From a virus, in the IMG/VR virus record IMGVR_UViG_3300009126_000404, positions 96,001 through 160,000 of that record: 64,000 bases of DNA; one strand, given 5' to 3'. Shown in pieces: positions 19,380 through 47,563 of this stretch (the stretch's first letter is position 1; the number at the start of each line of letters is the position of its first letter). The notes below the pieces were generated by a model. The model saw only the letters and a program-made list of their open reading frames with translations, was not told the DNA's origin and made no database searches. Made by a program: the position numbers and the translations under genes.

Positions 19380-19382
19380 GTG

Positions 19383-19691
19383 CTAGGCTCCTAGATAAAA
19401 TTTAAGGATTCCTGAAGCCCAAATAAAAATTGCTATGGCATTAAGAAGAATTAATGATCTATCATGCCATAACATTCCAACTACCATCCAGCCAGCGACA
19501 CCAATAAGTGACATAACCATATTCCATGGTTCGTATCCGCCTATTCCTACTAGTGACATGCCAACAAGAAGAAAAATACTAGAGATCCATTTAATGTACC
19601 AAGATAAATCATATCTTGGTGTTACTTTTTTAATTGCTAGTTTTCTCCAATAACCTTTTTCTTCTTCCAATGGTAAATCTTGTTGTTTCAT
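19383..19691 (-). CDS. small multi-TM membrane protein
   Basis: Three hydrophobic helices with WHDRSL motif. Confidence 0.65.
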   Translation of the reverse strand: MKQQDLPLEEEKGYWRKLAIKKVTPRYDLSWYIKWISSIFLLVGMSLVGIGGYEPWNMVMSLIGVAGWMVVGMLWHDRSLILLNAIAIFIWASGILKFYLGA

Positions 19692-19948
19692 TAATCTGGT
19701 CGTCCAACACTTTCAAGTATAGTTTCTACTTGATCAAAAACATCTCTTTGTTTATGTAATTCGCCCTTGTGTGCTACTTTAATGGCTTTATTAATAATAG
19801 CAGGCTTAATGTCCATTTCTTCTGCAACGTGCTTAACTGTATCTCGTAGACCTTCATTAAGAGTCTCAACTTCTGCCATAACATGTATGCCTTCCTGTAT
19901 TAATGTTTTAAGTTTTGCTATATCGTCTTGATTGAATGTAATACTCAT
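19691..19948 (-). CDS. T4 DsbA-like dsDNA-binding protein
   Basis: Size and pattern (KLKTLIQEG...VAEEMDIKPAIINKAIKVAHK) resemble DsbA; own TTGACT-17-TATAAT promoter at 19977-20005. Confidence 0.55.
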   Translation of the reverse strand: MSITFNQDDIAKLKTLIQEGIHVMAEVETLNEGLRDTVKHVAEEMDIKPAIINKAIKVAHKGELHKQRDVFDQVETILESVGRPD

Positions 19949-19990
19949 AGATATTCTCCTAGTTTAGTTAATGTTTATTATAGACTATAA

Positions 19991-20860: not shown

Positions 20861-20864
20861 ATTA

Positions 20865-21152
20865 CTAACGTCTGTTTGTTTGTTCTAAAAACTTAACACG
20901 TTCATCAAGTTCTTCAATTTTTTTAGATATTTTAGGATTGACTTTTTTCCATGCTTCAGGGTCTTCTTGGAACCAAGTTAAATTAAAACGATTAACAAAA
21001 TAGTCTAATAGTCTTTCCCATTTGCTATATACCCAAAAACTAATTCGGGTGCCACGCATGTATGCGACAAACAATGCACCACAACAGGCTCCACCTATAC
21101 CTGTGTAAATCCACAAGCGATCTGTAGCCATGTTCTGAATTATTTCCCACAT
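20865..21152 (-). CDS. hypothetical membrane-anchored protein
   Basis: One TM segment plus coiled C-terminus. Confidence 0.65.
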   Translation of the reverse strand: MWEIIQNMATDRLWIYTGIGGACCGALFVAYMRGTRISFWVYSKWERLLDYFVNRFNLTWFQEDPEAWKKVNPKISKKIEELDERVKFLEQTNRR

Positions 21153-22249
21153 TATTTAATATACATCTGAGGAAATGGATATTGATCTGGTTTAACCATT
21201 GCAATTACGTATGCTGTATCCATATGAAACCTCATGTCCGTTTTGTCTAAATCACTTGCTTGTTGGATATACACTAACGAATCTTTGTTTTTATCAATAA
21301 ACAAAATTCCTTCCAATGCACCTTTTTCTCTTTTAATGCTAAGATAGTTGTTAACGTTTGCTTGTGCATACAACTGAAGTGCTACACCATTATTACCGTT
21401 TACTATAGCATCTGTAATAGGACCAGTGTCAACACCTTTAGTAAATATATTTTGTAAAAGATTGCTTACGTCTTTTTTAAAGGCTGATTTATGTTTTGGA
21501 TCTGTTAAAGAGTTTGCAAATCCAGTTAAGTGTTTTAGATTCATTCCCGATGCTGGTATTTTTAATCCAGATGCTTCTATTAAATCTTTGTACCTATTTA
21601 TAAATTGGTCAACTAATTGAGTATAATTAGACGTAACACTAACATCTCTATCTGTAAATCTTGCCGCACCTACACTTCTTGTTTTTACTTCTACGTTTTT
21701 GCCATCAATTATTAAATCTCCTGAGCCACCCTGTGCTCCAATGCCAGAAATAGTTTTTGAAAGTACTGCTAATGTAAACTCACCTTCTCCAATTCCATAT
21801 CCTGAAACTTGGTTAAGATCATTTACAAATTCTGTAAATGCAGGGTTTACCCCATATCCTGGAAATATTTCTTCAAATGTTGATGCACCTGGTGATATTA
21901 ATTTACCAGTATTAACTAATTTATTAGCATTCCAGTTTGTAAATAATTCTTTTATTTGAGGTCCGGTGAAATCAATTGCCGCAATAATTTTTGCTATCTT
22001 ATTAGTTGCTTTTTGTACGTCTTCATCATCTATAGCGGTAACTCTATTTAATACACTTGCTACTCTGCCACCTGCTCCAACATCACGTAATGCTTGTTCT
22101 ATTTTATCAATAACGGCGGCAGTTGCTTCACCACCTTTACCATCTACAGGAAGAGCTTGGATCTTATCTATTAGTACTTGTTGTAATTTAAGTAACTCTT
22201 TTGGTGATGCTTCATCTAGTAATTTCTCAAATAAGTGTGTTAGTCTCAT
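21152..22249 (-). CDS. putative internal head protein with PD-(D/E)xK-like nuclease domain
   Basis: Leader MRLTHLFE; GEGEF...GDLIIDGKNVEVKT. Confidence 0.55.
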   Translation of the reverse strand: MRLTHLFEKLLDEASPKELLKLQQVLIDKIQALPVDGKGGEATAAVIDKIEQALRDVGAGGRVASVLNRVTAIDDEDVQKATNKIAKIIAAIDFTGPQIKELFTNWNANKLVNTGKLISPGASTFEEIFPGYGVNPAFTEFVNDLNQVSGYGIGEGEFTLAVLSKTISGIGAQGGSGDLIIDGKNVEVKTRSVGAARFTDRDVSVTSNYTQLVDQFINRYKDLIEASGLKIPASGMNLKHLTGFANSLTDPKHKSAFKKDVSNLLQNIFTKGVDTGPITDAIVNGNNGVALQLYAQANVNNYLSIKREKGALEGILFIDKNKDSLVYIQQASDLDKTDMRFHMDTAYVIAMVKPDQYPFPQMYIK

Positions 22250-22253
22250 TTTG

Positions 22254-22949
22254 TTAATTCCTATATTTAATAAGATCTTTTAATCTTTGTATATCTTGAC
22301 CTGAATCTTCTTTAACAGAAGACCATAATTTAATTGCTTTGTTAATAATGTTATGAGCATCATCGTCTGAGTCAAACCCATGATGACTAGCAAGGTCAAT
22401 TGAATCAGTATTGTAAATTTGTATGTCTTTAGGAATATTAAGATCTACTAGTGTTTTTACCAGTGACTCTGGGCTTGTTGTTTGATCTTCTAATTTGGTT
22501 TGAACGCCATTCCAAGTATATAATTCAACCATGCCATCATCTGCCTTAAAGGTAATACTTTTAGATGGCCTTGCTTCTTTAAAACCCTTTGTTCTACGGT
22601 CAACCGCTACTGTTTCTTCTAATTCTAAGTCGTAGTGTTTTTTATATGGGCCGGAAGCTATACTTAGGTTGCTAATATGGACTTCTATAAATTTTCCGTT
22701 ATTTAATTTAACATCAACTAATCCACCTCTTCCCATTACAGAAAATACCCTTCCGTTTTTTCCAGACTTAGTTAGAATAACTTTTTGTCCTTTTTTAACT
22801 TTATTAATGGTAAGTGGTTTAGTATTCTTCATTGAAGAATCTTTGTCAAAGTTATATGCAACATTTTTATATTGAGCATGGGTACGAGCCTCATCAATAT
22901 CTGTAGATTCATTTGCCTGCATCCAACGTGTTACTTTATATTTACTCAT
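22254..22949 (-). CDS. putative prohead core/internal protein
   Basis: VDRRTKGFKEA motif, acidic, several xE junctions. Confidence 0.5.
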   Translation of the reverse strand: MSKYKVTRWMQANESTDIDEARTHAQYKNVAYNFDKDSSMKNTKPLTINKVKKGQKVILTKSGKNGRVFSVMGRGGLVDVKLNNGKFIEVHISNLSIASGPYKKHYDLELEETVAVDRRTKGFKEARPSKSITFKADDGMVELYTWNGVQTKLEDQTTSPESLVKTLVDLNIPKDIQIYNTDSIDLASHHGFDSDDDAHNIINKAIKLWSSVKEDSGQDIQRLKDLIKYRN

Positions 22950-22961
22950 ACTTACGCTCTC

Positions 22962-23219
22962 CTATTTCTTAATTGCTTTCCAAAGTTGATTAACTAACTT
23001 ATCTTTTCTTTCTCTTCTATCTAGCTCAATTCCATAAGTTCTACCAATTTCTTCTAGTTTCACTTTGGTTAATTTTGCTAATTCTTTTTTATTTCTAAAT
23101 GCCGGTTTTATTATTATTGGGTTAGTAACGGTCTTTTTCTTAACTGTGACCTTAGGTTTTGATACAAATACTTGTTGTTTTGCACCATCGCCAAACATTT
23201 TTTTAATCCAATTAAACAT
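22962..23219 (-). CDS. small basic protein with Rho-N/HeH-like motif
   Basis: LAKLTKVKLEEIGRTYGIELDRRERKDKLVNQL. Confidence 0.5.
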   Translation of the reverse strand: MFNWIKKMFGDGAKQQVFVSKPKVTVKKKTVTNPIIIKPAFRNKKELAKLTKVKLEEIGRTYGIELDRRERKDKLVNQLWKAIKK

Positions 23220-23222
23220 ATT

Positions 23223-24590
23223 TTATTTTTCCCTCTTTCCTTTTATCCACTTAGCCTTTTCAGCTATATGATATGCTTCTTTTTTCTTATCTTCTTCAAC
23301 TCTGTCACTGTCTAAATAATTCCATAATGAATCAAGTTGCATCATTTCTTTTGGTGATAAGCGATCACCTCTTGCTACTAATTCATCAAATACTGCAATT
23401 TCTCTTTTTAATTCTTTTTTAGTCATCGCTCCAGGATGTTTACCTGAAAGTGTCCACGGTGATCTACTTGGATCTATTTCTTTTATAATTGATTCGTTTG
23501 CTCTTTTTAATGCCTTTGCTACACTTGGATGACTTGCTAAACCTTTTGCAAGTTTCTCAATAGCCGCATAAGCACCATCATAATTACCATCTCTATATCT
23601 TGGATCATTTAAAATTCCAAATGCCATTTTAATTTGTTTTGGAGAATATTCATTTAATGTATCGTCATGACGCCTGTTATTTGGTTCGAATCTAAAATCG
23701 TCGCGGTCTGCATCTGCTAACTTTAAATCGTCTGACATTGATTCAGTAGGATGATTTGCATAATTTGCTCTTATAAGACTTGGCTTTAATCCAAGTTCTC
23801 TAGTTCTAATATCATCAACAGCATTTTGAATTCTGTATGCTATCTCATTTTTAAGTTTAGAAGTCATATCTTCAGGCCTATGTTTAAATAATATTTCTAC
23901 ATACTCGTCAATTGTGTTTAAGTATCCTTCCATGTTACCCTTTGGTCCTTCTGTTACTTTTTCTCTAATGCCTCCAGTACCTATTTCATCTCTACAATCA
24001 GAACAAAGAAAATTATAAGGTTCTTCTGAGGCATGATCTGTTGAAGCTGGAATATCTTTACCACATTCTAAACATTTTACAACTTTTTCTTCTTTTACTT
24101 TTTCTGCACTTTCAGTACGATGTCGCCCAATTACAAGTTTGTCAAAAGCACTTTCCATATTGTCAACCATCGTCTCATAGCCACCAAGCATATTTCTAAT
24201 GTCATTAACCATATCGGAACTGTTATCTTTGCCTTCAATGTCTTGTAAGTTAAGAAGTATTTTTCTTACTCGCTTTAATTCTTTTCTTAAATTATGGATT
24301 TGAATACCTTTATAATCATTATAATCTTTACCTGATTTAACATTGTCATGATAAAGATCACTTGCTTCGTCCTCTTTAACACTTTCAAGCATTTTCCAGT
24401 ATTTGTTTACAATACCTCTACGTGCTTCAATTTCGTCTGGAAGAATATGCCCACGAGCATAATGATCTCCTTGAATTTGTAACATTAATTTTAGTTCTTC
24501 TTCTGTACCAAAGGCTCTGGCCATTTCCACACCATTTTCTGTGTGATAATTTTTATCTTCGTTATCTAAAAACTGAGCCTTTGTAAACAT
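23223..24590 (-). CDS. putative modular internal head (poly)protein
   Basis: Leader MFTKAQFLDNE; modules bounded by VKE/VTE/LNE/ANE/IKE; one CxxC...CxxC module. Confidence 0.6.
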   Translation of the reverse strand: MFTKAQFLDNEDKNYHTENGVEMARAFGTEEELKLMLQIQGDHYARGHILPDEIEARRGIVNKYWKMLESVKEDEASDLYHDNVKSGKDYNDYKGIQIHNLRKELKRVRKILLNLQDIEGKDNSSDMVNDIRNMLGGYETMVDNMESAFDKLVIGRHRTESAEKVKEEKVVKCLECGKDIPASTDHASEEPYNFLCSDCRDEIGTGGIREKVTEGPKGNMEGYLNTIDEYVEILFKHRPEDMTSKLKNEIAYRIQNAVDDIRTRELGLKPSLIRANYANHPTESMSDDLKLADADRDDFRFEPNNRRHDDTLNEYSPKQIKMAFGILNDPRYRDGNYDGAYAAIEKLAKGLASHPSVAKALKRANESIIKEIDPSRSPWTLSGKHPGAMTKKELKREIAVFDELVARGDRLSPKEMMQLDSLWNYLDSDRVEEDKKKEAYHIAEKAKWIKGKREK

Positions 24591-30938: not shown

Positions 30939-32171
30939 TTAACTATTTATCGATTTATGCAATTCAATGAACGTTTCTTTCCAATTTGTTCCTCTTATTT
31001 CATCAAGTTTTTCTAAAAAATCTGTACAATTATAAGAATTACCGTCATAATCTATATTATTGTGTAAATAATTTACTAATTGACGTATACAAAGTTTATC
31101 TATGTGTATTGAGTTAGTATACATATTTATAATATCTAATTTAGCTTGTTTAGGAAGGTGTTTTGCATCTAGCATATCAGGGTTTGATAGTATTCTTATA
31201 TTAACGTGGTAATTATTAAAGTGATCTAATAAGTTTAATATTGTAAATGCATTAAGCATTTGCCAAGTAATACTTATTTCTATCTCTGTATTTGGTAATA
31301 ATTTATTAATACGCTCTATATTTTCATTTAACTTATGCCATTTACTAGGAAAACGTATATAATCATTTTGCTCACCGTAATCATCTATACTACATCTAAG
31401 CATTAACTTTTTAAAGTGTTTCCATTGATCAATTGCACGTTGATGTACATTTGTAATATTTGTGTCGTACTCTAGCACTACATTGTTACTTACACCACTG
31501 TCTATTAGATTTTGCAAAAATTTGTAGTGTGGCTCAACTAACATAGGCTCACCGCCTACTAGATATACATGTTCTAATTGATCTTTATGTTTATCTAACT
31601 GTTCCCAAAAGTGTTCACTTTCCCACCAATCATAATCCGATGCACGGTCTTTCTTTTGTTGTTTGTTTCCGTCCGAGATGTTTATTTTGGTACCGCTGTC
31701 GTAAAAATGATCAGTGGAGTGAACTTTTGCCCAGTCTTTATACCACATACTACTACTTTGAGGTCCGCACATTACACATTTTAAATTGCATAAATTACCA
31801 AACCTTAAATCCCAATAGATAGGCATTTGTGTTGTGCTACCATTAAGTGCTGTTACTTTTACTGCTTTATCGTAATCAAATACATCTTTGTACATTTCGT
31901 TTGTAAATGTACGTCTGCTTTTACCACCGTTATCTTCTTTAACCCAACATGTATTACATTCTACAGGTTTTTCTCCTGCTAAGAATTGCTTACGAATCTT
32001 GCGAGTAAATTCGCTATTATGTATTTCTTCTATTGTATGATCTTTAAAGTTATGTCCAGTGAGTCCACCATTTACGTGGTTGCTCATTAAGCAACATACT
32101 CTACTAGTTCCGTTTGTTTTAGTAGCGGCATGTATCCAAGGAATTGAACAAAAATTATTCTTCTGCATCAT
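30939..32171 (-). CDS. radical SAM protein with N-terminal twitch/SPASM-like domain
   Basis: FCSIPW, RVCC, CNTCW; CNLKCVMC; GGEP. Confidence 0.9.
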   Translation of the reverse strand: MMQKNNFCSIPWIHAATKTNGTSRVCCLMSNHVNGGLTGHNFKDHTIEEIHNSEFTRKIRKQFLAGEKPVECNTCWVKEDNGGKSRRTFTNEMYKDVFDYDKAVKVTALNGSTTQMPIYWDLRFGNLCNLKCVMCGPQSSSMWYKDWAKVHSTDHFYDSGTKINISDGNKQQKKDRASDYDWWESEHFWEQLDKHKDQLEHVYLVGGEPMLVEPHYKFLQNLIDSGVSNNVVLEYDTNITNVHQRAIDQWKHFKKLMLRCSIDDYGEQNDYIRFPSKWHKLNENIERINKLLPNTEIEISITWQMLNAFTILNLLDHFNNYHVNIRILSNPDMLDAKHLPKQAKLDIINMYTNSIHIDKLCIRQLVNYLHNNIDYDGNSYNCTDFLEKLDEIRGTNWKETFIELHKSINS

Positions 32172-33333
32172 TATTAATCCATTCTGATAGTTCTAAATCA
32201 AAACTTTCTAATGTAAGTGCACCATGTGTATCATAGTAATCTACAAAATGCCTTACTGTTTCTTTACGTTTTGTAGTATTGTTAAATGGCTTACGCATCT
32301 CATTTATAACATGATCAACACCTTCTAGTCTACTTTTATGCTTTTCAAAAAATGCTAAACTTTCTTTTTTAAATCTATCAGGAATGTTTTCCATTAGTAC
32401 TTCTGTCTTATTAACAACAGGTCGTATTTGTACTTTTGCATCTGGATAGTTATTCCATAAATATGTAATAAGTTTAGGTATGTGTCTTACACTTAAACTA
32501 TTTGCTGTTATATCCCATACCGCCAATCTAAAGTTTTTGTAATACTGATCCATTACTTGTAATTTTTCTTCCCATACTGTATCTTGCCTAGTCCACTCAT
32601 CAGCTGCACCCCAACCATCTACACTAAATCTTATGAATACATTTTCAACAGTTTTAAATTGCTTTAAATCTTTTTCTCTTAATAACCTTGTACCATTTGT
32701 ATTAATTACAAAATTTGCTCTTGGAGCAAGTTTACCTAGTCTTTCTACAGTAGTAGGAAAGTTTTTAAGATAAAAAGGCTCACCGCCTGCTAAGTATACG
32801 TGCTTTAAATTTTTATCAACGCTTGAAATGATATTCTCCCACGCTTGTGGATCATCACTCCAATCATAATTGCTTCTATGATATTTTTTTGCTTCTTTTT
32901 CTAAACGGCCTTCTTTCCAATTAAAATGCTTTGCCATTGATTTATGATTATGTAATATTTTATTACTGTTACCTGCGAAACACATAACACATGCTAAGTT
33001 ACATACGTTACCTAATCTTAAATCTAATGCATGTATTTTATTATCTTTAAATGGAACACCTTGGTTAATCATGCCCAACGCTTTTTGCCTAAAACTACGC
33101 ACACCTTCGCGTTCTGGATCATAACATTTAAAACAACCCGCAGGTTCGCCACCGTTAGCAATTTCTGTTCTAACCTCATGCATTTCTGGGCTATTCCAAA
33201 TATCACTTAATTTATAATCTTTAATATGATATTGTGAAAGTTTATTCTTTAGGTTTTTACAGCACAATGCTACATATCCATCATTATCGATGAATGTAAA
33301 ATTGTTCGTATATATACAATATTTTTCTGTCAT
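32155..33333 (-). CDS. radical SAM protein with N-terminal twitch/SPASM-like domain
   Basis: YCIY, LCC, CFKC; CNLACVMC; GGEP. Confidence 0.9.
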   Translation of the reverse strand: MTEKYCIYTNNFTFIDNDGYVALCCKNLKNKLSQYHIKDYKLSDIWNSPEMHEVRTEIANGGEPAGCFKCYDPEREGVRSFRQKALGMINQGVPFKDNKIHALDLRLGNVCNLACVMCFAGNSNKILHNHKSMAKHFNWKEGRLEKEAKKYHRSNYDWSDDPQAWENIISSVDKNLKHVYLAGGEPFYLKNFPTTVERLGKLAPRANFVINTNGTRLLREKDLKQFKTVENVFIRFSVDGWGAADEWTRQDTVWEEKLQVMDQYYKNFRLAVWDITANSLSVRHIPKLITYLWNNYPDAKVQIRPVVNKTEVLMENIPDRFKKESLAFFEKHKSRLEGVDHVINEMRKPFNNTTKRKETVRHFVDYYDTHGALTLESFDLELSEWINNDAEE

Positions 33334-33374: not shown

Positions 33375-35894
33375 TTATTGTAACTCTTCTGGTATACCAA
33401 TATCTTGCACTACTTTATTATCTTTAAATCCGTCAATAACATATTTCTGTGCTTCTTTAGTCCAATTCTTTTGCATTGCTTTTAATAGTGATTCAAAACT
33501 ATTTAAATCTTTACCACTATCAAGTCCTAATTGTTGTGCTATTTCATCTGGTTGTTTCCAAGGACCATCTATTGTTTCGTTTTTATTTTTCTTAGTATAG
33601 CCTGTGCCTGCTTTATTAGGAACAGGTGTACGTTTAACACGCAATAACCCTTCTGTTGGGCTCCACATTAAACGTCTAGTTTCCATTGCACGACCGTCTT
33701 CTAACTTAGCATCACTTTCATCTCTATTGTGAACTGCGGCCAATGTTGCAATCATAATGTTACGATAAACACCTTTGTATTTTGAATCATCTTCATGTGG
33801 TGTATGATAATATGTTTTTAGCCAACCTGGATCTCCTGGCATAAAGTCAACCTGTACAAATCCTGTACGTGGTCTACCTTCAGGATCTACTTTGCTTTTA
33901 TCAAAGTTTTGTATTTTTACTTTTGTCATAACAACACTAGTTTTTCTAATATCACTGACAAGTGGATTTTTATTAAGAGCTTCAATAAACGCTGGAATCT
34001 CTTCTGGTGCTATTTTCAACGCTACATCAATATCACCACTAAATTGTTTTTTGCCTACACTGCCTAATGTATTATTTTGTAAATCAATACCTAACGACTT
34101 TTCTAATTGTTCTAATGTTGGTTTAATCTCATCAATATGTACTGTTCCAACACCTGGCATTGCTCCGCCCTCGTTTAATACAAAGTATTTTGTAATTAAA
34201 TTTTCATTTTCAAATGTACCATATTTTTCTACCCATTTGTATAAATTTGTTTTCCAGTATGGACTTTGACTTCCGTAATCCCAATGTTTCTTTTTCTTCT
34301 TATTTTTATTATTCTTGCCCGTTGGCGGTGGTGGGCCACCTGCGGCGCCACCTGGTGGTGCTAATGGTGATATCTCTGGATGTATATCTGGTCTATAAGT
34401 TGGTACGAATTTTGGACCGGTCTGAGGAATTTCTTTAGTCGTAATATCTGGATGTCTACCTGGTGTTTCAGGTGGAATATATGGCTTCGCATCTGGTTCT
34501 ACTTTAGTTGGTTCCTTTTTAGGCTCTACCTTAGGTTCCTTTTTAGGTTCTATTTTTGGTTCCTTCTTAGGCTCTAATTTTGGTTCCTTCTTAGGTTCTA
34601 TTTTTGGTTCCTTTTTAGGTTCTATTTTTGGTTCCGTCGCTGGTGGTTCTACTGGCATTCCTGGTTTTCCAGGCTCAACAGGTGGTTTTCCTGGATCATT
34701 CCAACCTGGTTTAATTCGAGTTGGAATAGAGTTAGGGTTCTGTCCTGGCTTCCATTTTATAGGATCAGGTACTTCAACAGGTGGCTCAATTGCTGGTGGT
34801 ACAAATGGAATAACTTTTGGATCACTGCCAGGTTCTGGTATTGGGCCTTTTCCTGGTTCATGTGGAGTAATTTCTGGATCATTTGCTGGTTCTGGTTGTC
34901 CTATGCCTGGAGGAAAAATTGGTACAATTTTCGGTTGTGGTACTAATTTGGGTAATGGATCAGCTTCAGGTTCAGGTTGTGTTATTGGTCCTACTCCTGG
35001 TTCATGTGGAGTAATTGGAACGGGTGCTGTACTTGCTATTATTTTATCTATTTGCTGAGTTTGTGTAGCTACTTCTGTTGTAGTTGCAGGACTTTTAACT
35101 ATTTGTGTTACTAATTCGTAAAGCAAATAAGCATCTAAGGCAAGTAATCCAGCATTTGCTACAATCATACCTGGACCTGTAATTGCGGTTGCACCTGTTA
35201 CTGTAGCATGTCTTAATCCTAGTTTTACTAAAAATCTTGAAATTAAACTCTTTGCAGTTTTCTTTTCTGTTTGAGTTGCTATTTTTTTCGCTAACTCTTT
35301 TGCAACTTTTTCATCAATTTCTGTTTGAGTTAATACTTTTTTAGTGTTAAAATCAATTACAACTGCTGGTTTTACAATTTTATGTGTTACAACACGTGGT
35401 TTAAAATTAGGTGTATCAGGTAATTTAAGTGCTGGATCGGCTTCTGCTAATAATTTAATAGACTCAAATACTAACTTACCTTGCGTACTGTCTAATGAAT
35501 AATCATGTGATTGAATTTCAAATTCTTTATTTGATGTCTTAAAATTTTTCTTACGCATTACTGTTTTAGCAACAAGATCAAGTTCGTTATTAACTGAATC
35601 CCAACGTAAAGCAAAAGGTACATTGACATCTGTAGCTAGGTCTTTTAGAACTGCTTCTGTATTTGGTCCTAATTCTGCTATAGGTTTGCCCCATTTTTTG
35701 TATTCTTGCTTGAATAAACGAGTAAGCTCACTCGCTGTAATTTGTTTTACATTACGCTCATCATTTACTCTGCTTAGAAAATGACGGGTGAATTCTACAT
35801 CAATTCCGACTTTTGCAAATAATCTGTCTGCAAAAACCTCTAATTGATCTAATTCTGTCTGTGATAAGGGTTTGTCTACTTCGTTTATTCTCAT
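33375..35894 (-). CDS. multidomain putative internal protein: N-terminal domain (possibly BECR RNase), hydrophobic segment, Pro-rich stalk, C-terminal pol-beta-type nucleotidyltransferase
   Basis: Leader MRINE; FTRHFLSRV; EPK repeats; after LNE: LGSVGKKQFSGDIDVAL...VQVDF. Confidence 0.65.
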   Translation of the reverse strand: MRINEVDKPLSQTELDQLEVFADRLFAKVGIDVEFTRHFLSRVNDERNVKQITASELTRLFKQEYKKWGKPIAELGPNTEAVLKDLATDVNVPFALRWDSVNNELDLVAKTVMRKKNFKTSNKEFEIQSHDYSLDSTQGKLVFESIKLLAEADPALKLPDTPNFKPRVVTHKIVKPAVVIDFNTKKVLTQTEIDEKVAKELAKKIATQTEKKTAKSLISRFLVKLGLRHATVTGATAITGPGMIVANAGLLALDAYLLYELVTQIVKSPATTTEVATQTQQIDKIIASTAPVPITPHEPGVGPITQPEPEADPLPKLVPQPKIVPIFPPGIGQPEPANDPEITPHEPGKGPIPEPGSDPKVIPFVPPAIEPPVEVPDPIKWKPGQNPNSIPTRIKPGWNDPGKPPVEPGKPGMPVEPPATEPKIEPKKEPKIEPKKEPKLEPKKEPKIEPKKEPKVEPKKEPTKVEPDAKPYIPPETPGRHPDITTKEIPQTGPKFVPTYRPDIHPEISPLAPPGGAAGGPPPPTGKNNKNKKKKKHWDYGSQSPYWKTNLYKWVEKYGTFENENLITKYFVLNEGGAMPGVGTVHIDEIKPTLEQLEKSLGIDLQNNTLGSVGKKQFSGDIDVALKIAPEEIPAFIEALNKNPLVSDIRKTSVVMTKVKIQNFDKSKVDPEGRPRTGFVQVDFMPGDPGWLKTYYHTPHEDDSKYKGVYRNIMIATLAAVHNRDESDAKLEDGRAMETRRLMWSPTEGLLRVKRTPVPNKAGTGYTKKNKNETIDGPWKQPDEIAQQLGLDSGKDLNSFESLLKAMQKNWTKEAQKYVIDGFKDNKVVQDIGIPEELQ
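34510..34635 (-). repeat. coding tandem repeat EPK(K/I/L/V), 12/24-nt period
   Basis: EPKIEPKKEPKIEPKKEPKLEPKKEPKIEPKKEPKVEPKK. Confidence 0.9.
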
Positions 35895-35925
35895 ACAACT
35901 ATTTATGCCAAAACGTATATTGATA

Positions 35926-36988: not shown

Positions 36989-37603
36989 TTACTTAATTGC
37001 ACTGTCCTTCTCAAATATCTTTTCTTCTCGTTCACAAGTATTTGATTCTTGTGTTACTTGGCCTGCTTTAAACTGTTCTAACCCTTGTTGTACTTTTGAT
37101 AATGGGTCTTCGTCTGCTTGATACTTAATTCCAATTCCACCACTACTTTGCCAACGTTGAATATTTTTACCTAAATCGTCAATTAATATGTTTGGTGTCC
37201 CGTCTGCTTGTTTAGCATATGAAGTTTTATCACCAACTATATGAATATCAGTTGGTTTAATTTTTAATTTTCTTCCAATCCAATCTATCTTATGCATTTT
37301 ACTATTAGCATGATCATTTCTTAAAGGTGAACTTAATATTTTATATGAGCCAAAGAAATTTATAACCATTTGAATTAATTTATCTGCTGTAGGAAATTTT
37401 GGTAATTGAGCGAAGAAGTCTGTGCCTATCATTTTATCTAATGTTGGGTCAATATCTGCTGGTGGAATATCTTTATAGTTTCCTGTTTTAATACCTGCTA
37501 GTTTAGCCCATTCTTCAAAGAAGTTTGCTAATACGCCATCCATGTCAATATAAACAATTGGTTCGCTTTTTGGCTCTTCATTTATTATATCATTAATTAG
37601 CAT
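36989..37603 (-). CDS. HAD 5'(3')-nucleotidase (NT5C-like) with leader
   Basis: IDMDGVLANF; ILIDD; leader MLINDIINEE. Confidence 0.8.
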   Translation of the reverse strand: MLINDIINEEPKSEPIVYIDMDGVLANFFEEWAKLAGIKTGNYKDIPPADIDPTLDKMIGTDFFAQLPKFPTADKLIQMVINFFGSYKILSSPLRNDHANSKMHKIDWIGRKLKIKPTDIHIVGDKTSYAKQADGTPNILIDDLGKNIQRWQSSGGIGIKYQADEDPLSKVQQGLEQFKAGQVTQESNTCEREEKIFEKDSAIK

Positions 37604-38318
37604 ATACTTCTCCAGTTTCTATATAAGACCATATCTTCTTAAGTAATTTTTTTATAACAGGGTGACTACTGTCAAACCCAAATACTGAGAAATAAGCAAA
37701 TAAATTAGGAGACAATAAATTCTCTTTCTCTCTGTATTGTGCAGTTTTTCCTGCCATACGTAATAATGTAAGAGCAGTTTCTTTATCTGTTTTACGTACT
37801 AATTCACTAGCGATGTTTTTAGCATACGCCTCTATTTCATCATCGTTTCCTAAATATTCTCTAGATTTTTTTATTTTATCTGATAATCCTTTTACAGGTC
37901 TAAACTCACGTTGCTTTTTAAACCCTCTTTGTCGATATTGATTTTTATGAATTAATTCATGTTCTAATACATCAATAAGTCTATTCTTAATATTGTTTAC
38001 TCCTTCTGTACTAAAAGCAATTGTTTTATCTTTGTCAGAAAATAATAAATCAATTTCAAAATGATCAAATCCTTCTTCATCTTCAACAGGATCATAAGAG
38101 GCATTCATATTCATATCGCCTTCTCCTACATTTTTAGATTGTGCAAATCCTACTTCATCAACACCTATTGAATTTAACTCAACTTGTAATTTTTTAGCAA
38201 TATTTTTAAAGGAAATTTCTTTACCTGATCCAATAAAGGTTAAAAAAGGTGACAAGGCTGATTCAATATCTTGTCTAGTAATTAATTCGTTTTCATTTAT
38301 TATATCATTAATTAACAT
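37593..38318 (-). CDS. putative zincin metallopeptidase with leader
   Basis: HELIH plus downstream YLGNDDEIEAYA; leader MLINDIINE. Confidence 0.6.
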   Translation of the reverse strand: MLINDIINENELITRQDIESALSPFLTFIGSGKEISFKNIAKKLQVELNSIGVDEVGFAQSKNVGEGDMNMNASYDPVEDEEGFDHFEIDLLFSDKDKTIAFSTEGVNNIKNRLIDVLEHELIHKNQYRQRGFKKQREFRPVKGLSDKIKKSREYLGNDDEIEAYAKNIASELVRKTDKETALTLLRMAGKTAQYREKENLLSPNLFAYFSVFGFDSSHPVIKKLLKKIWSYIETGEVYAN

Positions 38319-40027
38319 TTTTTTAAATCCTGGTTTTCATCTAAAGATAATTTAGCCGCAATTGCCATTTGTCTTTTCTTTGCTTTGCTTTTACCTTTGA
38401 ATTGTGGTGCATCACTTTTATAAAAGTCTTTAATAACATCACTCATTGAAGTGTTTTTTGTTATTTTTTCATTAGTAACACTTGGTATTAGTACTTCTGG
38501 CATTTTTATATTAGAAATATCTTTGCCCATACTGTCTTTGTATGCGTTAGCAAGTCTACTACGTTCGTTAGGATCATCTGTTCTATAGAATTGATTTGCA
38601 ATGGCCATATCAGCAACTATCATGTCTGCTGGTGCTTCTATTATTATTGGCTTGTAATAACCTATCTTTTTAAAATCTTTGTTTGTTAAACTATAAAATG
38701 TACTTTCCCATTTATCAGGATGTAATGCAAATCCTCCATTACGTTCTGGAACTATCTCTGCTAATGGATCTGCTCCTTGATGGAACTTTCCTAATTTATA
38801 TAAACGAACTAACATTCCTTCTGCAATAGGCTTTTTTAAATAATATTCTAATCTACCTCGTTCTGTAGACAAGTCTGAATCTTCTTTTAATAAATCATCT
38901 TTTGTAGCAGTAAAATTACTTTGCTTCCATTGTTGTTTTAATTTATTAAGTGTTGCACCCATTTCTGGACCTGGCTTCATACCTTTAGCAATTAAGTCTG
39001 CACCTGTTATAGGAAAGTCTGGAACATTGGCAGTAACCGCATGATCAGCCATTTTACTTTGTCCTTGTAACTCTGCTAATGCTTGAATTTTTTCTTTTTC
39101 TACTCCATCAGCAATCATGTGTTCTACTTTAGTTTTATCAAGTGTATTGTTTTTATTCTTAACTAAAAAGTCTAATAGTACTGCTTCATTATTGCTTAAC
39201 TTCCAACGCTTTGCTATATCTACACTATTACCTAATTGTGCTAATGCTACAATAGGATTACCTCTGTCTTTTACTTTAGTTAAGTCATTTGTTGCCAATC
39301 CTATGATTTTACTTACACCTGCTTTTTCCATCATTGCTAATACACTTGCAACATTTTGTCCTGCAAGTAATTTACTCATTTCTTGCCAAACACGTTCAGC
39401 ACTTATTTGTGTTAATCCTTTTGCATGTGTACTAATTGAATTTAATGTATCTCCATCCCATGTAGGCGTTGATAATCTACCTTGGAAACGAAAGTAACGT
39501 AATATTCGTAAATAATCTTCTGTAATTCTTTCTTCTGGATCGCCTACAAATTTACTTACTTTATCTTGTAAATCATCCATACCATTAAAGTAATCATATA
39601 CATTACCATCAATATCCATACTCATAGCATTGTATGTTAGGTCTCTGCGTTTAGCATCTTCTTCCCAACTACGCACAAATTCAACTTCAGCATGTCTGCC
39701 GTCAGTTTCTTTGTCTGCTCTTAGTGTTGTTATCTCAAATGGTTTGCTGTCTATGATTGCTGTAATAGTACCATGTTCTAAACCTGTTGGTTTATATGAT
39801 ATACCTGCTTTATCAAGTATAGCAATCATTTCATCTGGTGTGGCGTCTGTAGCGAAGTCAATATCTTTAGGTGATTTTCCTAGTGCAATATCTCGTACTG
39901 CACCACCTACTATTCGCATTTCGTGATTGTTGTCTTTAAATACTTTGTCAAGAGTTTGTATAGGCGTAGATATAATAGGTTTTATATTTAATCTTTCCTC
40001 GTATATAAGTAATTCACCGATACGCAT
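38312..40027 (-). CDS. cca: class-II tRNA nucleotidyltransferase (CCA-adding), no HD domain, extra C-terminal module
   Basis: VGGAVRD, DIDFAT, EITTLR..DGRHAEV, RRDLTYNAM, EDYLRILRYFRF, ISAERVWQE; leader MRIGELLIYEE. Confidence 0.9.
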   Translation of the reverse strand: MRIGELLIYEERLNIKPIISTPIQTLDKVFKDNNHEMRIVGGAVRDIALGKSPKDIDFATDATPDEMIAILDKAGISYKPTGLEHGTITAIIDSKPFEITTLRADKETDGRHAEVEFVRSWEEDAKRRDLTYNAMSMDIDGNVYDYFNGMDDLQDKVSKFVGDPEERITEDYLRILRYFRFQGRLSTPTWDGDTLNSISTHAKGLTQISAERVWQEMSKLLAGQNVASVLAMMEKAGVSKIIGLATNDLTKVKDRGNPIVALAQLGNSVDIAKRWKLSNNEAVLLDFLVKNKNNTLDKTKVEHMIADGVEKEKIQALAELQGQSKMADHAVTANVPDFPITGADLIAKGMKPGPEMGATLNKLKQQWKQSNFTATKDDLLKEDSDLSTERGRLEYYLKKPIAEGMLVRLYKLGKFHQGADPLAEIVPERNGGFALHPDKWESTFYSLTNKDFKKIGYYKPIIIEAPADMIVADMAIANQFYRTDDPNERSRLANAYKDSMGKDISNIKMPEVLIPSVTNEKITKNTSMSDVIKDFYKSDAPQFKGKSKAKKRQMAIAAKLSLDENQDLKKC

Positions 40028-40036: not shown

Positions 40037-41332
40037 TTATTTAAAGCCATACTTTTGAGCTACACCCAGTAAATTTGAATCCCAATAATTACCTTTGTTT
40101 AAGTTACTCCAATAACTTTTAAGTTTACCACCCTTTTTCTTATCTTTCTTCTTAGGTTTTTCTTTTGGTTTTATTTTTTTGTTTGCTACTTTTTTAGCTA
40201 CTACTTTAGAACTAGTGGCACCTGCTGCCGGAGCTATATCTGTCTTTTTAGCAGTTTGTTTAGAAGTTTGTTTAGCGGTTACTTTAGCGGCTGTTGAAGT
40301 TGCCGCCGGTGTTGTACTAATTTTAACTTTTTTAGCCTTAGCCGCATCATCTGCCGCCTTTTGTAACTTATCATCTACTTTGCCTTTTAACTTATCAACT
40401 GCTTTAGTTGTTGCTTTAGTTGCCGTTGAAGTTGCCGCCGGTGCTGTTGAGTGTGGCATTACATCTTTTACTTTTTTAGATGTTGTTTTAGTTGTTACTT
40501 TAGCGGCTGTTGAAGTTGCCGCTGGTGTTGTATCAACTTTAACTTTTTGTGCTTTTTTTATTAAAGCATCATCTGCTTTCTTATTGATTTGTTTAGCTGT
40601 TGCATCACTGGCTGCTTTTGCTAATTTTGGATCTACTTTACCTTTTAATTTATCAACTGCTTTAGTTGTTGTTTTAGCAACTGCTGTTGATACTGGAGCA
40701 GTAGTCGTTTTATTAATTGCTGTAGCTATTGAAGAAGAAGGCGAAGATAAATCTAAAATTTTCTGTTTAATCTTAGCGGCATGTGGTGAATCAATTCTAG
40801 TTACTGTTGCTTTACCATCTACACCTGCAATGAATTTACCTTTTGATGTTGTTATAGTATCGCCTGGCTTTGCTGTTTGTACAACTTTTTTAGATGTTGT
40901 AGTTGTTGCTGTACTTCCCACTGATGCATTAGAAACTTTATTAATACCTTTAGGAACTTCTACATTTTTTGGAGTTGGAATATCTGCTGTTTTCTTTTGA
41001 GCTATTTTAGCTGCCTTTTTGGATTTATAAATTTTCTTACCTACTTTATAACCTTTACCTATTACCTTACCAAGTACTCCGCCTGCTATTGTTATTGCTA
41101 CGTCGGTTCCTACTCGAGTGGCTAATTCTGCTTTAGTAATTTCACCTCTCTCATATTGCTTTTTTGCTTGATATGTATCGTATGCAGTCCACGCCGCACC
41201 ACCTGCCCATAATGCAACAGGTATTAATGGTAAAAACTCAAGAATAACTTGTCGTTCATCTTTATTAACACCTCGTTCTTTTAAAATTGTATCTGCGGGT
41301 AGGTCTTTTTCTACCAAATTGGCTATTCTCAT
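40037..41332 (-). CDS. Lys/Ala/Thr-rich repetitive putative internal protein (start revised to 41332)
   Basis: Leader MRIANLVE; hydrophobic FLPLIPVALWAGG after ILE; H1-like low-complexity body. Confidence 0.7.
   Translation of the reverse strand: MRIANLVEKDLPADTILKERGVNKDERQVILEFLPLIPVALWAGGAAWTAYDTYQAKKQYERGEITKAELATRVGTDVAITIAGGVLGKVIGKGYKVGKKIYKSKKAAKIAQKKTADIPTPKNVEVPKGINKVSNASVGSTATTTTSKKVVQTAKPGDTITTSKGKFIAGVDGKATVTRIDSPHAAKIKQKILDLSSPSSSIATAINKTTTAPVSTAVAKTTTKAVDKLKGKVDPKLAKAASDATAKQINKKADDALIKKAQKVKVDTTPAATSTAAKVTTKTTSKKVKDVMPHSTAPAATSTATKATTKAVDKLKGKVDDKLQKAADDAAKAKKVKISTTPAATSTAAKVTAKQTSKQTAKKTDIAPAAGATSSKVVAKKVANKKIKPKEKPKKKDKKKGGKLKSYWSNLNKGNYWDSNLLGVAQKYGFK
40281..40700 (-). repeat. 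216-nt (72-aa) internal duplication
   Basis: ACTTTAGCGGCTGTTGAAGTTGCCG at 40281 and 40497; TTKAVDKLKGKVD twice; outer boundary approximate. Confidence 0.8.
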
Positions 41333-46945: not shown

Positions 46946-47563
46946 TCAATTATCAAGTTCTTGAAGGGTTATACAGGTTTCCATAGTTAAACGAAGCATG
47001 TCGCTATATGCTAATTTGAATAACATCATAGTTTCTTCGCTGTTTGTAAATATTGTTGGTGGTTGTGCTAAACGACCAGGTGAACCAAAATATGACCCAT
47101 ATGCAGTTGATACAACTCTGTTATCACCTTTAGGAAAATGTTCATATATCCATTCTACCATACGCCTGCTTTCTTGGGGTGAAGTAGTTCTATCCCAATT
47201 ATGCCATGATGATACTTTATGTTTATACCTATTGAACCATAACTTATCACGTATAACTACTTTCCTATCACGTTTATGTAATAATTCTCTATGTAAATCA
47301 TTTAATGGTTTAGTAATTTCTATTACTTCATACTCACCATTTAAAACACTTTGTATAATTTTATCACTTGATGTATAAAGATTACAATCATATTCATGTT
47401 TACTTCTAAACATTTTTACTACTCTGTAATTTAATCTTCCGCTATCGTTAAATCTCTTATAAGTAAAATGAAAATTACGTGGAATTTTTATTATTCTTAG
47501 ACGTGTATCAAATTCTCTGTAAAATACAGATTCTGTTGGCAATATTTGTGGATTATTCTCCAT
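46946..47563 (-). CDS. hypothetical protein
   Basis: 205-aa ORF coupled to ClpA. Confidence 0.6.
   Translation of the reverse strand: MENNPQILPTESVFYREFDTRLRIIKIPRNFHFTYKRFNDSGRLNYRVVKMFRSKHEYDCNLYTSSDKIIQSVLNGEYEVIEITKPLNDLHRELLHKRDRKVVIRDKLWFNRYKHKVSSWHNWDRTTSPQESRRMVEWIYEHFPKGDNRVVSTAYGSYFGSPGRLAQPPTIFTNSEETMMLFKLAYSDMLRLTMETCITLQELDN

What the first reader, a model, noticed from the sequence alone, without database searches (positions are those of the whole stretch)
33375..35894. 839-aa chimera: possible RNase, membrane segment, Pro stalk and nucleotidyltransferase
The N-terminal ~125 aa (FTRHFLSRVNDERN...LVAKTVMRK) has the HxxxR helix and terminal strand pattern of BECR-fold RNases, which is an inference. 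A Gly/Ala hydrophobic stretch follows, then ~250 aa of Pro-rich and EPKK repeats and a Lys tract. After an LNE junction comes a pol-beta-type NTase (GS..SGDID...QVD). The architecture resembles a polymorphic-toxin effector, and cleavage would release a free NTase that could AMPylate, repair RNA ends or make signalling nucleotides.
Basis: partly seen in the sequence, partly recalled or inferred. Interest (0 to 1): 0.75.

Follow-up and report, generated by a model that had tools for sequence, protein, structure and literature searches.

The report
Capsid-targeted phage two-enzyme precursor
An 839-residue protein of an uncultured giant T4-type marine phage links a possibly RegB-like RNase domain, through a throw-away repeat linker, to a DNA-polymerase-X-like nucleotidyltransferase that begins exactly at a head-protease cutting motif, so it is probably loaded into the capsid, cut free and injected with the DNA, which would be a new kind of phage cargo but is untested.

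Summary
The C-terminal 264 aa fold with very high confidence (pLDDT 96.6). They match family X DNA polymerases over palm plus thumb (Z 9.8 to Pol beta, 8.3 to ASFV Pol X), whereas other nucleotidyltransferases match only the ~88-residue core. No Pfam model covers this domain. In about 135 of 176 non-redundant relatives it is preceded by hydrophobic-x-Glu directly before an N-terminal Gly-Gly; 22 others start Met-Gly-Gly. That motif is the known cut site of the T4 gp21 head protease, which a syntenic relative encodes. A stand-alone homologue in phage PA5oct is annotated as a virion protein. The N-terminal 125 aa form a very common phage domain whose fold could not be predicted. A targeted profile comparison gives a weak hit to T4 RegB that aligns the catalytic histidine. 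The linker ranges from 2 to 862 aa among relatives and the Pro-rich stalk is not conserved. Best reading (0.55): a capsid-targeted, protease-processed polyvalent precursor delivering a PolX-like enzyme. First-stage notes and two follow-up reports of this scan describe similar tagged nucleotidyltransferase/ligase cargo on other phage genomes.

The parts
33375..35894 (-). Whole ORF, 839 aa plus stop: precursor protein
   Evidence: identical protein in the database, and full-length relatives of 470-1260 aa
35880..35894 (-). N-terminal tag M1-R2-I3-N4-E5 (I-x-E), candidate capsid-targeting/propeptide motif
   Evidence: M1, R2, E5 and D7 are invariant in 14 diverse relatives. The same tag class starts 8 ORFs in a 20-kb block. 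T4 Alt, gp67, gp68, gp21, gp22, gp24 and IPI-III start the same way.
35511..35894 (-). Conserved N-domain (residues 1-128), fold unknown, possibly RegB/BECR-like; invariant H38, R42, D45, R47, N48, K110, R114
   Evidence: PHROG 23027 and 14518, function unknown; hhalign to the RegB family P 1.4e-4 to 2.8e-3; AlphaFold2 pLDDT 44.6
35091..35213 (-). Hydrophobic Gly/Ala-rich segment (residues 228-268), weak TM-like helix
   Evidence: best 19-mer hydropathy 1.55; a comparable segment reaches >=1.6 in 43 of 122 relatives
34317..35027 (-). Pro-rich low-complexity linker (residues 290-526); not conserved in the family
   Evidence: linker length is 2-862 aa among 125 fused relatives and median Pro content is 3%
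34508..34635 (-). 24-nt x 5.3 tandem repeat encoding the 8-residue Glu-Pro-Lys repeat (residues 421-462)
34287..34316 (-). Lys tract (residues 527-536)
34179..34286 (-). Conserved pre-junction segment (residues 537-572) with the W..NL......KYG motif
   Evidence: conserved in long- and short-linker relatives; the only other occurrence in the window is at the C-terminal end of ORF 40037-41332
34170..34178 (-). L573-N574-E575: predicted prohead-protease cleavage site, just before G576-G577
   Evidence: E575 and G577 are invariant. There are 135 [LIVMF]-x-E|GG junctions against 22 Met-Gly-Gly starts among non-redundant relatives. gp21 specificity is L/I-x-E (PMC9026906).
33378..34169 (-). C-domain (residues 576-839): family-X-polymerase-like nucleotidyltransferase, palm + thumb + C-terminal helical bundle
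   Evidence: AlphaFold2 pLDDT 96.6, pTM 0.91; Foldseek PDB top hits are Pol lambda/beta; VIA Z 9.8/9.3/9.0/8.3 to Pol beta, Pol lambda, TdT and ASFV Pol X; BFVD hits are phage proteins and giant-virus PolX
34026..34064 (-). Nucleotide-binding/catalytic motif G611-S612-x2-K615-x3-S619-G620-D621-x-D623
   Evidence: G611, K615, D621 and D623 are invariant in 55 diverse homologues; the motif aligns to the Pol lambda G-S...G-D-x-D motif
33846..33854 (-). Third catalytic carboxylate strand, Q681-V682-D683
   Evidence: Q681 and D683 invariant

Best explanation
The gene encodes the precursor of a capsid-packaged 'internal/ejection' protein of a T4-type jumbo marine phage. It is built like a small polyvalent protein. 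A short T4-like N-terminal tag (M-R-I-N-E) and a conserved 125-aa N-domain, possibly a RegB-like RNase, are joined by a dispensable low-complexity linker to a 264-aa nucleotidyltransferase. That C-domain has the palm and thumb of family X DNA polymerases. Inferred steps are as follows. The precursor enters the prohead core. The gp21-type (S77) prohead protease cuts after Glu in L/I-x-E motifs, above all at L573-N-E575, giving a mature enzyme with a free Gly-Gly N-terminus. The linker is discarded, and the enzyme leaves the head with the DNA. In the cell it would use D621/D623/D683 to add nucleotides to a nucleic-acid 3' end. Its recurrent fusion to ligase-type domains elsewhere points to fill-in or tailing followed by sealing, either of the incoming genome or of damaged RNA/tRNA. 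Shown here: the domain architecture, the fold, the catalytic residues, the conservation of the junction motif, and the protease gene in a syntenic relative. Inferred: packaging, cleavage, injection and substrate.
For: (1) Fold. The C-domain model has pLDDT 96.6. Family X polymerases match about 160 residues across palm and thumb (Z 9.8-8.3), while TUTases, PAP, MenT and CD-NTases match only about 88 core residues. The catalytic triad and the G-S/K motif are invariant. (2) Junction. Every fused relative has [LIVM]-x-E directly before G-G. Among non-redundant N-termini, 135 have [LIVMF]-x-E|GG, 22 start M-GG and about 19 are other. Stand-alone homologues next to N-domain genes carry 19-residue leaders ending I/L-x-E, the same length and form as the T4 IPI leader read from the T4 record. 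T4 IPII/IPIII, Alt, gp21, gp22, gp24, gp67 and gp68 begin alike. gp21 cuts after L/I-x-E, and Alt loses 6 residues at ITE-6. (3) Protease. Relative G001 shares gene order with the window at 60-82% identity and encodes Peptidase_S77 and Gp23; G004 and G005 do as well. (4) Virion evidence. The PA5oct stand-alone homologue is annotated 'structural protein, ESI-MS/MS'. (5) Tag block. L/I-x-E occurs within the first 12 residues in 8 of 21 ORFs at window 21152-41365, against 18 of 216 elsewhere (Fisher p 5.6e-4). Two adjacent genes share a 27-nt tag cassette identical at 26 of 27 positions. (6) Polyvalent context. Elsewhere the N-domain is fused to AAA_33/Zeta-like kinase, GNAT, NT5C, HD+CCA-type NTase, DUF6267 and ParB-like modules, and one homologue has LPD23 in its linker. 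(7) Partners of the C-domain are RNA_ligase (PF09414) and DUF6267, which carries K-W-D-G and E-G-Y-V ligase-type motifs. In 41 of 80 loci the N- and C-domains are fused or encoded by overlapping genes.
Against: There is no direct evidence of packaging or cleavage for this phage or for any fused homologue. The window's own record (184 kb, about 51% complete) has no head genes or protease, so their presence is inferred from relatives. The gene lies among replication and metabolic genes, not in a structural module, although T4 ipI-III and alt also lie outside the head cluster. The hydrophobic-x-Glu before Gly-Gly could be part of the fold rather than a cut site. The PA5oct homologue has no leader yet is reported in virions, so a leader is not required for packaging there. 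The N-domain also occurs internally and at C-termini and as a very common 128-aa stand-alone protein, which suits an enzyme better than a pure targeting module. The PolX-specific minor-groove and steric-gate residues are not evident from sequence, so templated DNA synthesis is unproven. The canonical late promoter TATAAATA is absent upstream of the gene.
Confidence: 0.55

Rival explanations
1. It is a cytoplasmic, non-packaged multidomain nucleic-acid repair or processing enzyme. The N-domain binds or cuts RNA or DNA ends, the C-domain fills in or tails them, and they work with separately encoded ligase, kinase and CCA enzymes. On this reading the hydrophobic-x-Glu-Gly-Gly element is a structural or regulatory feature, and the shared N-terminal tags reflect co-regulation or translation-initiation preferences.
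For: The partner repertoire looks like an end-healing, fill-in and sealing kit: RNA_ligase, ligase-like DUF6267, AAA_33 kinase, HD+CCA and NT5C. The gene sits among DNA polymerase, CCA enzyme and nucleotidase genes. The N-domain is highly conserved with invariant polar residues, as an enzyme would be.
Against: It does not explain why the domain starts either at Met-Gly-Gly or directly after [LIVMF]-x-E in about 90% of cases. It does not explain the T4-IPI-like 19-residue leaders or the virion annotation of the PA5oct homologue. It does not explain why the tag is confined to one 20-kb block. Linker length varying from 2 to 862 aa argues that the two domains need no fixed geometry.
Confidence: 0.25
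2. One reading: a polymorphic-toxin-like effector. An N-terminal BECR RNase toxin is followed by a membrane anchor, a Pro stalk and a C-terminal NTase that is released to AMPylate targets or make signalling nucleotides.
For: The N-domain gives a weak, register-consistent profile match to RegB, with H38 aligned on catalytic His48. The N-domain is combined with many different C-terminal enzymes, a polymorphic pattern. A hydrophobic segment recurs in relatives.
Against: In polymorphic toxins the variable toxin is C-terminal, is secreted by a dedicated system and is followed by an immunity gene. Here the conserved neighbours are a DUF3307 membrane protein and radical SAM genes, and no secretion system is present. 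The NTase matches PolX over palm plus thumb, not the AMPylating, CD-NTase or RelA/SpoT families. The Pro stalk is not conserved. The hydrophobic segment scores 1.55 and contains Asp and Glu.
Confidence: 0.08
3. A membrane-anchored, TonB-like envelope-spanning protein (hydrophobic anchor plus Glu-Pro/Lys-Pro rod) used in superinfection exclusion, lysis control or DNA entry.
For: The hydrophobic segment followed by Pro-rich Glu-Pro-Lys repeats superficially resembles TonB. Some ejection proteins of giant phages carry TM segments (PMC5694885).
Against: No TonB_C or other envelope domain was found. A nucleotidyltransferase needs cytoplasmic NTPs. The linker shrinks to 2-20 residues in many relatives, and most linkers are not Pro-rich.
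Confidence: 0.04

Closest known systems
Phage T4 internal proteins IPI/IPII/IPIII and Alt (capsid targeting sequence plus gp21 processing)
   Same: A short N-terminal leader ends in L/I-x-E. The cargo is unrelated to head structure. The genes lie outside the head module. The lineage has a gp21-type protease. Cargo is delivered with the DNA.
   Different: Here the pro-region is 575 aa and contains a conserved folded domain and a repeat linker. The cargo is a PolX-like nucleotidyltransferase, which is not known among T4 internal proteins. Packaging has not been demonstrated.
Polyvalent proteins of phages and conjugative elements (Iyer et al. 2017, PMC5512222)
   Same: These are multidomain phage proteins that combine Pol-beta NTase, GNAT, Zeta-type kinase, ParB-like and (P)BECR-type modules in shuffled architectures, and they are predicted to be packaged and injected. 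One homologue carries LPD23.
   Different: The window protein has only two globular domains, and neither is in Pfam. Its module borders carry T4-type protease motifs, which is not a defining feature of that class.
Family X DNA polymerases, especially the minimal ASFV Pol X (palm + thumb only)
   Same: The palm and thumb fold match (Z 8.3 over 157 of 176 residues for ASFV Pol X; Z 9.8 for Pol beta). The G-S...G-D-x-D motif and the third Asp are shared. Like ASFV Pol X it lacks the 8-kDa and fingers domains, and relatives are coupled to a ligase.
   Different: There is no significant sequence similarity (E 1.6). Only one of 55 members gives a trace Pfam PolX palm hit, at E 0.096. It has an extra C-terminal helical bundle. 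The conserved S-K-Y-K-G-x2-R-N segment replaces the PolX Y-F-T-G-S helix-N motif. The substrate is unknown.
Pseudomonas jumbo phage PA5oct protein EST35_0231 (QCG76112)
   Same: It is a stand-alone homologue of the C-domain (27% identity, same motifs) and is annotated as a virion protein by ESI-MS/MS.
   Different: It has no leader, no N-domain and no linker, and its function is unknown.
T4 RegB endoribonuclease (BECR/RelE-YoeB-like, PF10715)
   Same: It has three N-terminal helices followed by strands. The H-[FL]-L-D-R helix aligns N-domain H38 with catalytic His48. hhalign gives P 1.4e-4 to 2.8e-3.
   Different: The match covers only the helical half (50-68 columns), and 10-column block shuffles can reach the same score. 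The second catalytic His68 aligns to Lys62. There is no HMM-level hit and no confident model.

Membership tests
Pol-beta superfamily nucleotidyltransferase | h-G-[GS] x(7-13) D-x-[DE] motif plus a third carboxylate on a later strand | tested here: met
   G611-S612 ... D621-x-D623 and D683 are invariant in 55 diverse homologues. The motif aligns to that of Pol lambda.
Pol-beta superfamily nucleotidyltransferase | Minimal palm fold (alpha-beta-alpha-beta core) | tested here: met
   Model pLDDT 96.6. The core, model residues 14-122, superposes on TUTases, PAP, MenT and CD-NTases at rmsd 2.0-2.9 A.
Family X DNA polymerase | Palm followed by the thumb (nucleotide-selection) subdomain | tested here: met
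   156-175 residues align over model 1-238 with Pol beta, Pol lambda, Tth PolX, TdT, Pol mu and ASFV Pol X, at Z 9.8-7.6. Foldseek E is 2e-5.
Family X DNA polymerase | N-terminal 8-kDa/dRP-lyase and helix-hairpin-helix fingers domains (absent from minimal ASFV Pol X) | tested here: not met
   The domain starts about 12 residues before its first helix. Matches begin at Pol beta residue 102-142. Stand-alone homologues start at the same point.
Family X DNA polymerase | Sequence-family membership (Pfam DNA_pol_B_palm/thumb; PDB sequence similarity) | tested here: not met
   The window domain has no Pfam hit. One of 55 members hits DNA_pol_B_palm at E 0.096. The PDB profile search gives E 1.6.
Family X DNA polymerase | Template-directed DNA synthesis or gap filling | not testable with these tools
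   This needs biochemistry.
T4-type CTS-tagged, gp21-processed head-internal protein | N-terminal leader and/or internal junction with L/I-x-E | tested here: met
   I3-N4-E5 and L573-N574-E575. The junction is conserved in 135 non-redundant relatives. T4 comparators were read from the T4 record.
T4-type CTS-tagged, gp21-processed head-internal protein | gp21-type (Peptidase_S77) prohead protease in the same genome | tested here: inconclusive
   It is absent from the 51%-complete record. It is present, together with Gp23, in syntenic relative G001 and in G004 and G005.
T4-type CTS-tagged, gp21-processed head-internal protein | Physical presence of the processed protein in virions | not testable with these tools
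   The only evidence is the GenBank note for the PA5oct stand-alone homologue.
Polyvalent proteins (Iyer et al. 2017) | Phage-encoded multidomain protein that combines conflict-type enzymatic modules in shuffled architectures | tested here: met
   N-domain partners are AAA_33/Zeta, GNAT, NT5C, HD+PolyA_pol, DUF6267 and ParB-like D-G-H-H-R. LPD23 occurs in homologue P0120.
BECR / PBECR / RegB-type RNase (N-domain) | Profile-level sequence membership | tested here: inconclusive
   There is no Pfam hit to PBECR or RegB at E<=1 for 25 members. Targeted hhalign to a RegB alignment gives P 5.8e-4, 2.8e-3 and 1.4e-4, against 12.6+-2.3 for column shuffles, but block shuffles reach the same score.
BECR / PBECR / RegB-type RNase (N-domain) | Fold: N-terminal helices followed by a 4-5-stranded sheet | tested here: inconclusive
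   The AlphaFold2 model has pLDDT 44.6 (three helices and two strands predicted). The best structural match is Z 3.9.
BECR / PBECR / RegB-type RNase (N-domain) | Catalytic His in a helix plus Ser/Thr or basic residues in a late strand | tested here: inconclusive
   H38, R42 and K110 are invariant and T111 nearly so. Their spatial arrangement is unknown.
Polymorphic toxin system | C-terminal toxin with an adjacent immunity gene and a dedicated secretion route | tested here: not met
   The conserved neighbours are a DUF3307 membrane protein and two radical SAM genes. The element is a phage genome with no secretion system in the 184-kb record.
TonB-like envelope-spanning protein | TM anchor + Pro-rich rod + TonB C-terminal domain | tested here: not met
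   There is no TonB_C hit. Hydrophobicity is 1.55. The linker is not conserved.

The most novel reading that the evidence does not exclude
T4-type jumbo marine phages load their capsids with a ready-made nucleic-acid toolkit made as tagged proteins and polyproteins. The toolkit would comprise a RegB-like RNase, a PolX-like polymerase, a K-x-D-G ligase-like DUF6267, a PNK-like kinase, a CCA enzyme and a nucleotidase. The prohead protease would cut the polyproteins apart at L/I-x-E joints and the enzymes would be injected with the DNA. The PolX-like enzyme and ligase would then repair the incoming genome (sunlight lesions, nicks, restriction breaks) or host-cleaved tRNAs before any phage gene is expressed.
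Probability: 0.25. Interest if true: 0.85.

Novelty: new variant of a known kind. Interest (0 to 1): 0.62.

Why it matters
Packaged, injected enzymes are known from a few models: T4 Alt and the IPs, the N4 and phiKZ virion RNA polymerases, and P1 Dar. A virion-delivered family-X-like polymerase has not been described in the library searched. If packaging is real, it would extend the idea of 'first-minute' phage weapons to nucleic-acid repair or tailing. Both domains are abundant in marine viromes, with hundreds to thousands of clusters, and neither has a Pfam model. Naming them would annotate a sizeable block of viral dark matter. The conserved L/I-x-E|Gly-Gly junction gives a simple, testable rule for predicting capsid cargo and polyprotein processing in uncultured T4-like phages. 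As a by-product, DUF6267 can be proposed as a ligase-type nucleotidyltransferase.

Tried and rejected
The N-domain fold could not be determined. AlphaFold2 on a 25-sequence alignment gave pLDDT 44.6, and a structural search with that model gave nothing above Z 3.9. The weak DUF3867 hits (10 of 25 members, best E 0.0012) were not pursued.

Complex prediction, intended to test N-domain/C-domain binding, was not available.

PF03420, Gp23, Portal_T4 and DUF6267 searches of the window's own record were empty, but the record is half a genome and the controls did not ring.

The T4 late promoter TATAAATA is under-represented in the window (5 found, 16 expected) and absent upstream of the gene. A shorter ATAAATA lies 12 nt before the start codon. 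It is only weakly enriched before tagged genes (4 of 10 against 22 of 227), so no promoter claim is made.

DUF6267 is not detectably related to the C-domain and has no PDB sequence relative.

The weak Pfam NUC hit at residues 177-231 (E 0.012, below cut-off) falls in non-conserved linker and was dismissed.

The A6-versus-A2 comparison meant as a control was invalid, because A6 held full-length fused proteins.
Full report
OBSERVATION. The stretch 33375..35894 holds one open frame on the minus strand, 839 aa; the plus strand is closed. A conserved N-domain occupies residues 1-128. A hydrophobic Gly/Ala segment lies at 228-268, with a best 19-residue hydropathy of 1.55. A Pro-rich region spans 290-526 and includes an 8-residue Glu-Pro-Lys repeat encoded by a 24-nt x 5.3 tandem repeat. 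A Lys tract at 527-536 is followed by L573-N-E575, G576-G577 and a domain with the Pol-beta signature (G611-S612 ... G620-D621-x-D623 ... D683). The window is part of a 183,842-bp IMG/VR phage record (33% GC, about 51% complete). The record carries a T4-type DNA polymerase, a CCA enzyme, a nucleotidase, a Lon-like protease and many radical SAM genes.

THE FAMILY. More than 875 database proteins of 470-1260 aa share both terminal domains. In an alignment of 14 diverse members the N-domain and C-domain are highly conserved, while the middle cannot be aligned. Across 125 fused relatives the linker runs from 2 to 862 aa (median 517). Only the window protein and its nearest kin are Pro-rich, and a hydrophobic 19-mer reaches 1.6 or more in 43 of 122. 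The linker is therefore a tolerated, fast-evolving tether, not a conserved stalk. A segment of about 35 residues just before the junction (W..NL......KYG) is conserved. Within the window it recurs only at the C-terminal end of ORF 40037-41332, which has the same overall design: tag, hydrophobic segment, low-complexity region and Lys tract.

C-DOMAIN. A full-library search found 533 cluster representatives. Most are stand-alone proteins of 250-300 aa that begin exactly where the window's domain begins. In 55 diverse members G611, K615, D621, D623, Q681, D683, R711 and G749 are invariant. No Pfam family covers the domain. The only PDB sequence signal is an insignificant alignment of the G-S...G-D-x-D motif to Pol lambda. 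AlphaFold2 gave pLDDT 96.6 and pTM 0.91. Foldseek against the PDB is headed by Pol lambda and Pol beta. An exhaustive structural comparison gave Z 9.8 (Pol beta), 9.3 (Pol lambda, Tth PolX, Leishmania Pol beta), 9.0 (TdT) and 8.3 (ASFV Pol X, 157 of 176 residues). These matches cover palm plus thumb. TUTases, poly(A) polymerases, MenT, OAS and CD-NTases align only over the ~88-residue core. Among viral models the nearest are uncharacterised phage proteins, followed by giant-virus family X polymerases. The domain is thus a minimal PolX-like enzyme (palm and thumb with an added C-terminal helical bundle). It lacks the 8-kDa and fingers domains and has no sequence-level PolX membership.

THE JUNCTION. 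All fused relatives have [LIVM]-x-E immediately before G-G. Stand-alone homologues fall into two classes: they start M-G-G, or they carry an 8-26-residue leader ending in hydrophobic-x-E before the G-G. Among non-redundant N-termini, 135 have [LIVMF]-x-E|GG (91 in fusions, 44 with short leaders), 22 start M-GG, and about 19 are other; several of the 'other' cases are slips of my pattern. The chance frequency of such a tripeptide at a fixed place is about 2%. Homologues encoded just upstream of N-domain genes have 19-residue leaders of the form M-[NK]-L-[FY]-E-L ... [IL]-x-E. The T4 IPI leader, read from the T4 record, is also 19 residues, begins M-K-T-F-K-E-F and ends I-T-E. IPII and IPIII begin MKTYQEFIAE, and Alt, gp67, gp68, gp21, gp22 and gp24 all start with L/I-x-E within 6-10 residues. 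The literature states that gp21 cuts after L/I-x-E and that the first 10 residues of IPIII are the capsid targeting sequence. It also states that Alt loses six residues at ITE-6 and that giant-phage head proteins have propeptides of about 125 residues (PMC9026906, PMC5694885). DUF6267 domains fused behind the C-domain likewise start right after L-x-E.

PROTEASE AND VIRION EVIDENCE. The window's own record lacks head genes. Relative G001 has the same gene order around its fused homologue, at 60-82% protein identity over eight neighbours. It encodes Peptidase_S77, a gp22-like scaffold and a Gp23 capsid protein. G004 and G005 also encode Peptidase_S77 and Gp23. In jumbo phage PA5oct the stand-alone C-domain homologue is annotated as a structural protein found by ESI-MS/MS.

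TAG BLOCK. The window protein starts M-R-I-N-E, and M1, R2, E5 and D7 are invariant in the family. In the 184-kb record, 10 of 237 ORFs start with the pattern M-[KRL]-[ILVF]-x-x-[ILVF], and eight of these lie at window 21152-41365. An L/I-x-E within the first 12 residues occurs in 8 of 21 ORFs of that block against 18 of 216 elsewhere (p 5.6e-4). The tagged neighbours include a CCA tRNA nucleotidyltransferase and a 5'-nucleotidase. Two adjacent genes share a 27-nt tag cassette identical at 26 of 27 positions, and the similarity stops right after the Glu codon. In other phages the same cargo types (NT5C, CCA-type enzyme, the PolX-like domain) carry the N-domain instead of the short tag.

N-DOMAIN. 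It has 1630 short relatives, many of them 128-aa stand-alone proteins in large marine phage contigs. In 80 IMG/VR loci it is fused to the C-domain in 17 and lies directly downstream of a C-domain gene, with a 4-bp overlap, in 24. In the other 39 it is joined to other modules: AAA_33/Zeta-like kinase, GNAT plus DUF5661, DUF6267, HD plus CCA-type NTase, NT5C and ParB-like motifs. In Sinorhizobium phage phiM12 it sits at the C-terminus of a 602-aa protein. Its fold could not be obtained, and Pfam, PDB and Atlas searches were empty. hhalign gave P 5.8e-4 (68 columns), 2.8e-3, and 1.4e-4 after trimming (50 columns). The register was the same each time and placed H38 on the catalytic His48 and D41-R42 on D51-R52. 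Column shuffles scored 12.6 +/- 2.3 (maximum 20.3) against 31.3 for the real alignment. Shuffles of 10-column blocks reached 31.2, the reversed profile scored 23.4, and an unrelated control gave P 0.16. RegB has three helices and a four-stranded sheet, with His48 and His68 catalytic (PMC3014915). I rate the RegB/BECR reading at about 45%.

FUNCTIONAL CONTEXT OF THE C-DOMAIN. Elsewhere it is fused to DUF6267 (six cases), to RNA_ligase PF09414 (three cases), and to cytidylyltransferase-like and NUDIX domains. The DUF6267 alignment has invariant H-x-E-D, K-W-D-G-x-P-A, G-D, F-x-P-N, E-G-x-V and K-x-V-x-R. This is the order of ligase/capping-enzyme motifs I, III, IIIa, IV and V, which I judge from established knowledge of covalent nucleotidyltransferases. 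A PolX-like enzyme repeatedly coupled to a ligase points to fill-in or tailing followed by sealing of nucleic-acid ends. Parallels are ASFV Pol X with its ligase, bacterial LigD, and T4 Pnk with Rnl.

VERDICT. The best explanation (0.55) is a capsid-targeted precursor, processed by the prohead protease, that delivers a PolX-like nucleotidyltransferase and possibly a RegB-like RNase. It is a variant of the T4 internal-protein/Alt principle and of the polyvalent-protein class. Packaging, cleavage and substrate are all inferred. The main rival (0.25) is a non-packaged cytoplasmic repair enzyme. The polymorphic-toxin and TonB-like readings are unlikely. First-stage notes and two follow-up reports of this scan describe the same kind of tagged NTase/ligase cargo on other phage genomes. 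I reached the tag, junction and ligase conclusions from my own calls, and I took the RegB comparison from one of those notes.

Noticed in passing
window 21152-41365: This is a block of eight ORFs that start with a T4-like tag (M-[RKL]-[IL]-x-x-[ILV] ... L/I-x-E). It includes a CCA tRNA nucleotidyltransferase (38312-40027), an NT5C/HAD nucleotidase (36989-37603), a 241-aa protein (37593-38318) and several proteins with no family. They are candidates for a capsid-cargo set.
   Followed up: partly
window 37577-37603 and 38292-38318: The first 27 nt of two adjacent, otherwise unrelated genes are identical at 26 of 27 positions, and the similarity ends right after the Glu codon. The tag appears to have been copied as a cassette.
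   Followed up: yes
window 40037-41332: This 431-aa ORF has the same design as the N-terminal two thirds of the target: tag, hydrophobic segment, Ala/Thr/Lys low-complexity region, Lys tract and a terminal W..NL......KYG motif. It has neither globular domain and no Pfam hit.
   Followed up: partly
loci L045, L068; proteins P0131, P0146, P0164, P0257, P0265 (alignment A4): Pfam DUF6267 has invariant K-W-D-G, G-D, E-G-x-V and K-x-V-x-R motifs in ligase order. It looks like an uncharacterised nucleic-acid ligase or covalent nucleotidyltransferase. It is recurrently fused to the PolX-like domain or to the N-domain.
   Followed up: partly
genome G000 outside the window (e.g. 18339-23343, 59640-64126, 66125-71727, 75407-83242) and window 30939-33333, 54506-55648: The phage record carries some twenty or more paralogous genes of about 400 aa with radical-SAM-type Cys motifs or PHROG radical SAM hits. 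This is an unusual expansion for a phage.
   Followed up: no
loci L019, L020, L024, L028, L034, L044, L051, L057, L061: A short module of about 45 residues (G-V-G-K-V-V-P-G-V-N-T-T-x-D-V ... K-Q-A-x-K-F-G) recurs at the N- or C-termini of N-domain-containing polyproteins. It has no family assignment and could be another docking or targeting element.
   Followed up: no
window 35906-35912, 30950-30956 region, 41362 region: The string ATAAATAGTT lies 12-30 nt upstream of three tagged genes, including the target, while the canonical TATAAATA is depleted in the window (5 found, 16 expected). It may be a variant late promoter. The enrichment is weak.
   Followed up: partly
window 47553-49811: A 752-aa Lon-like ATP-dependent protease gene (phrog_4871, E 2e-225) is encoded by the phage.
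   Followed up: no
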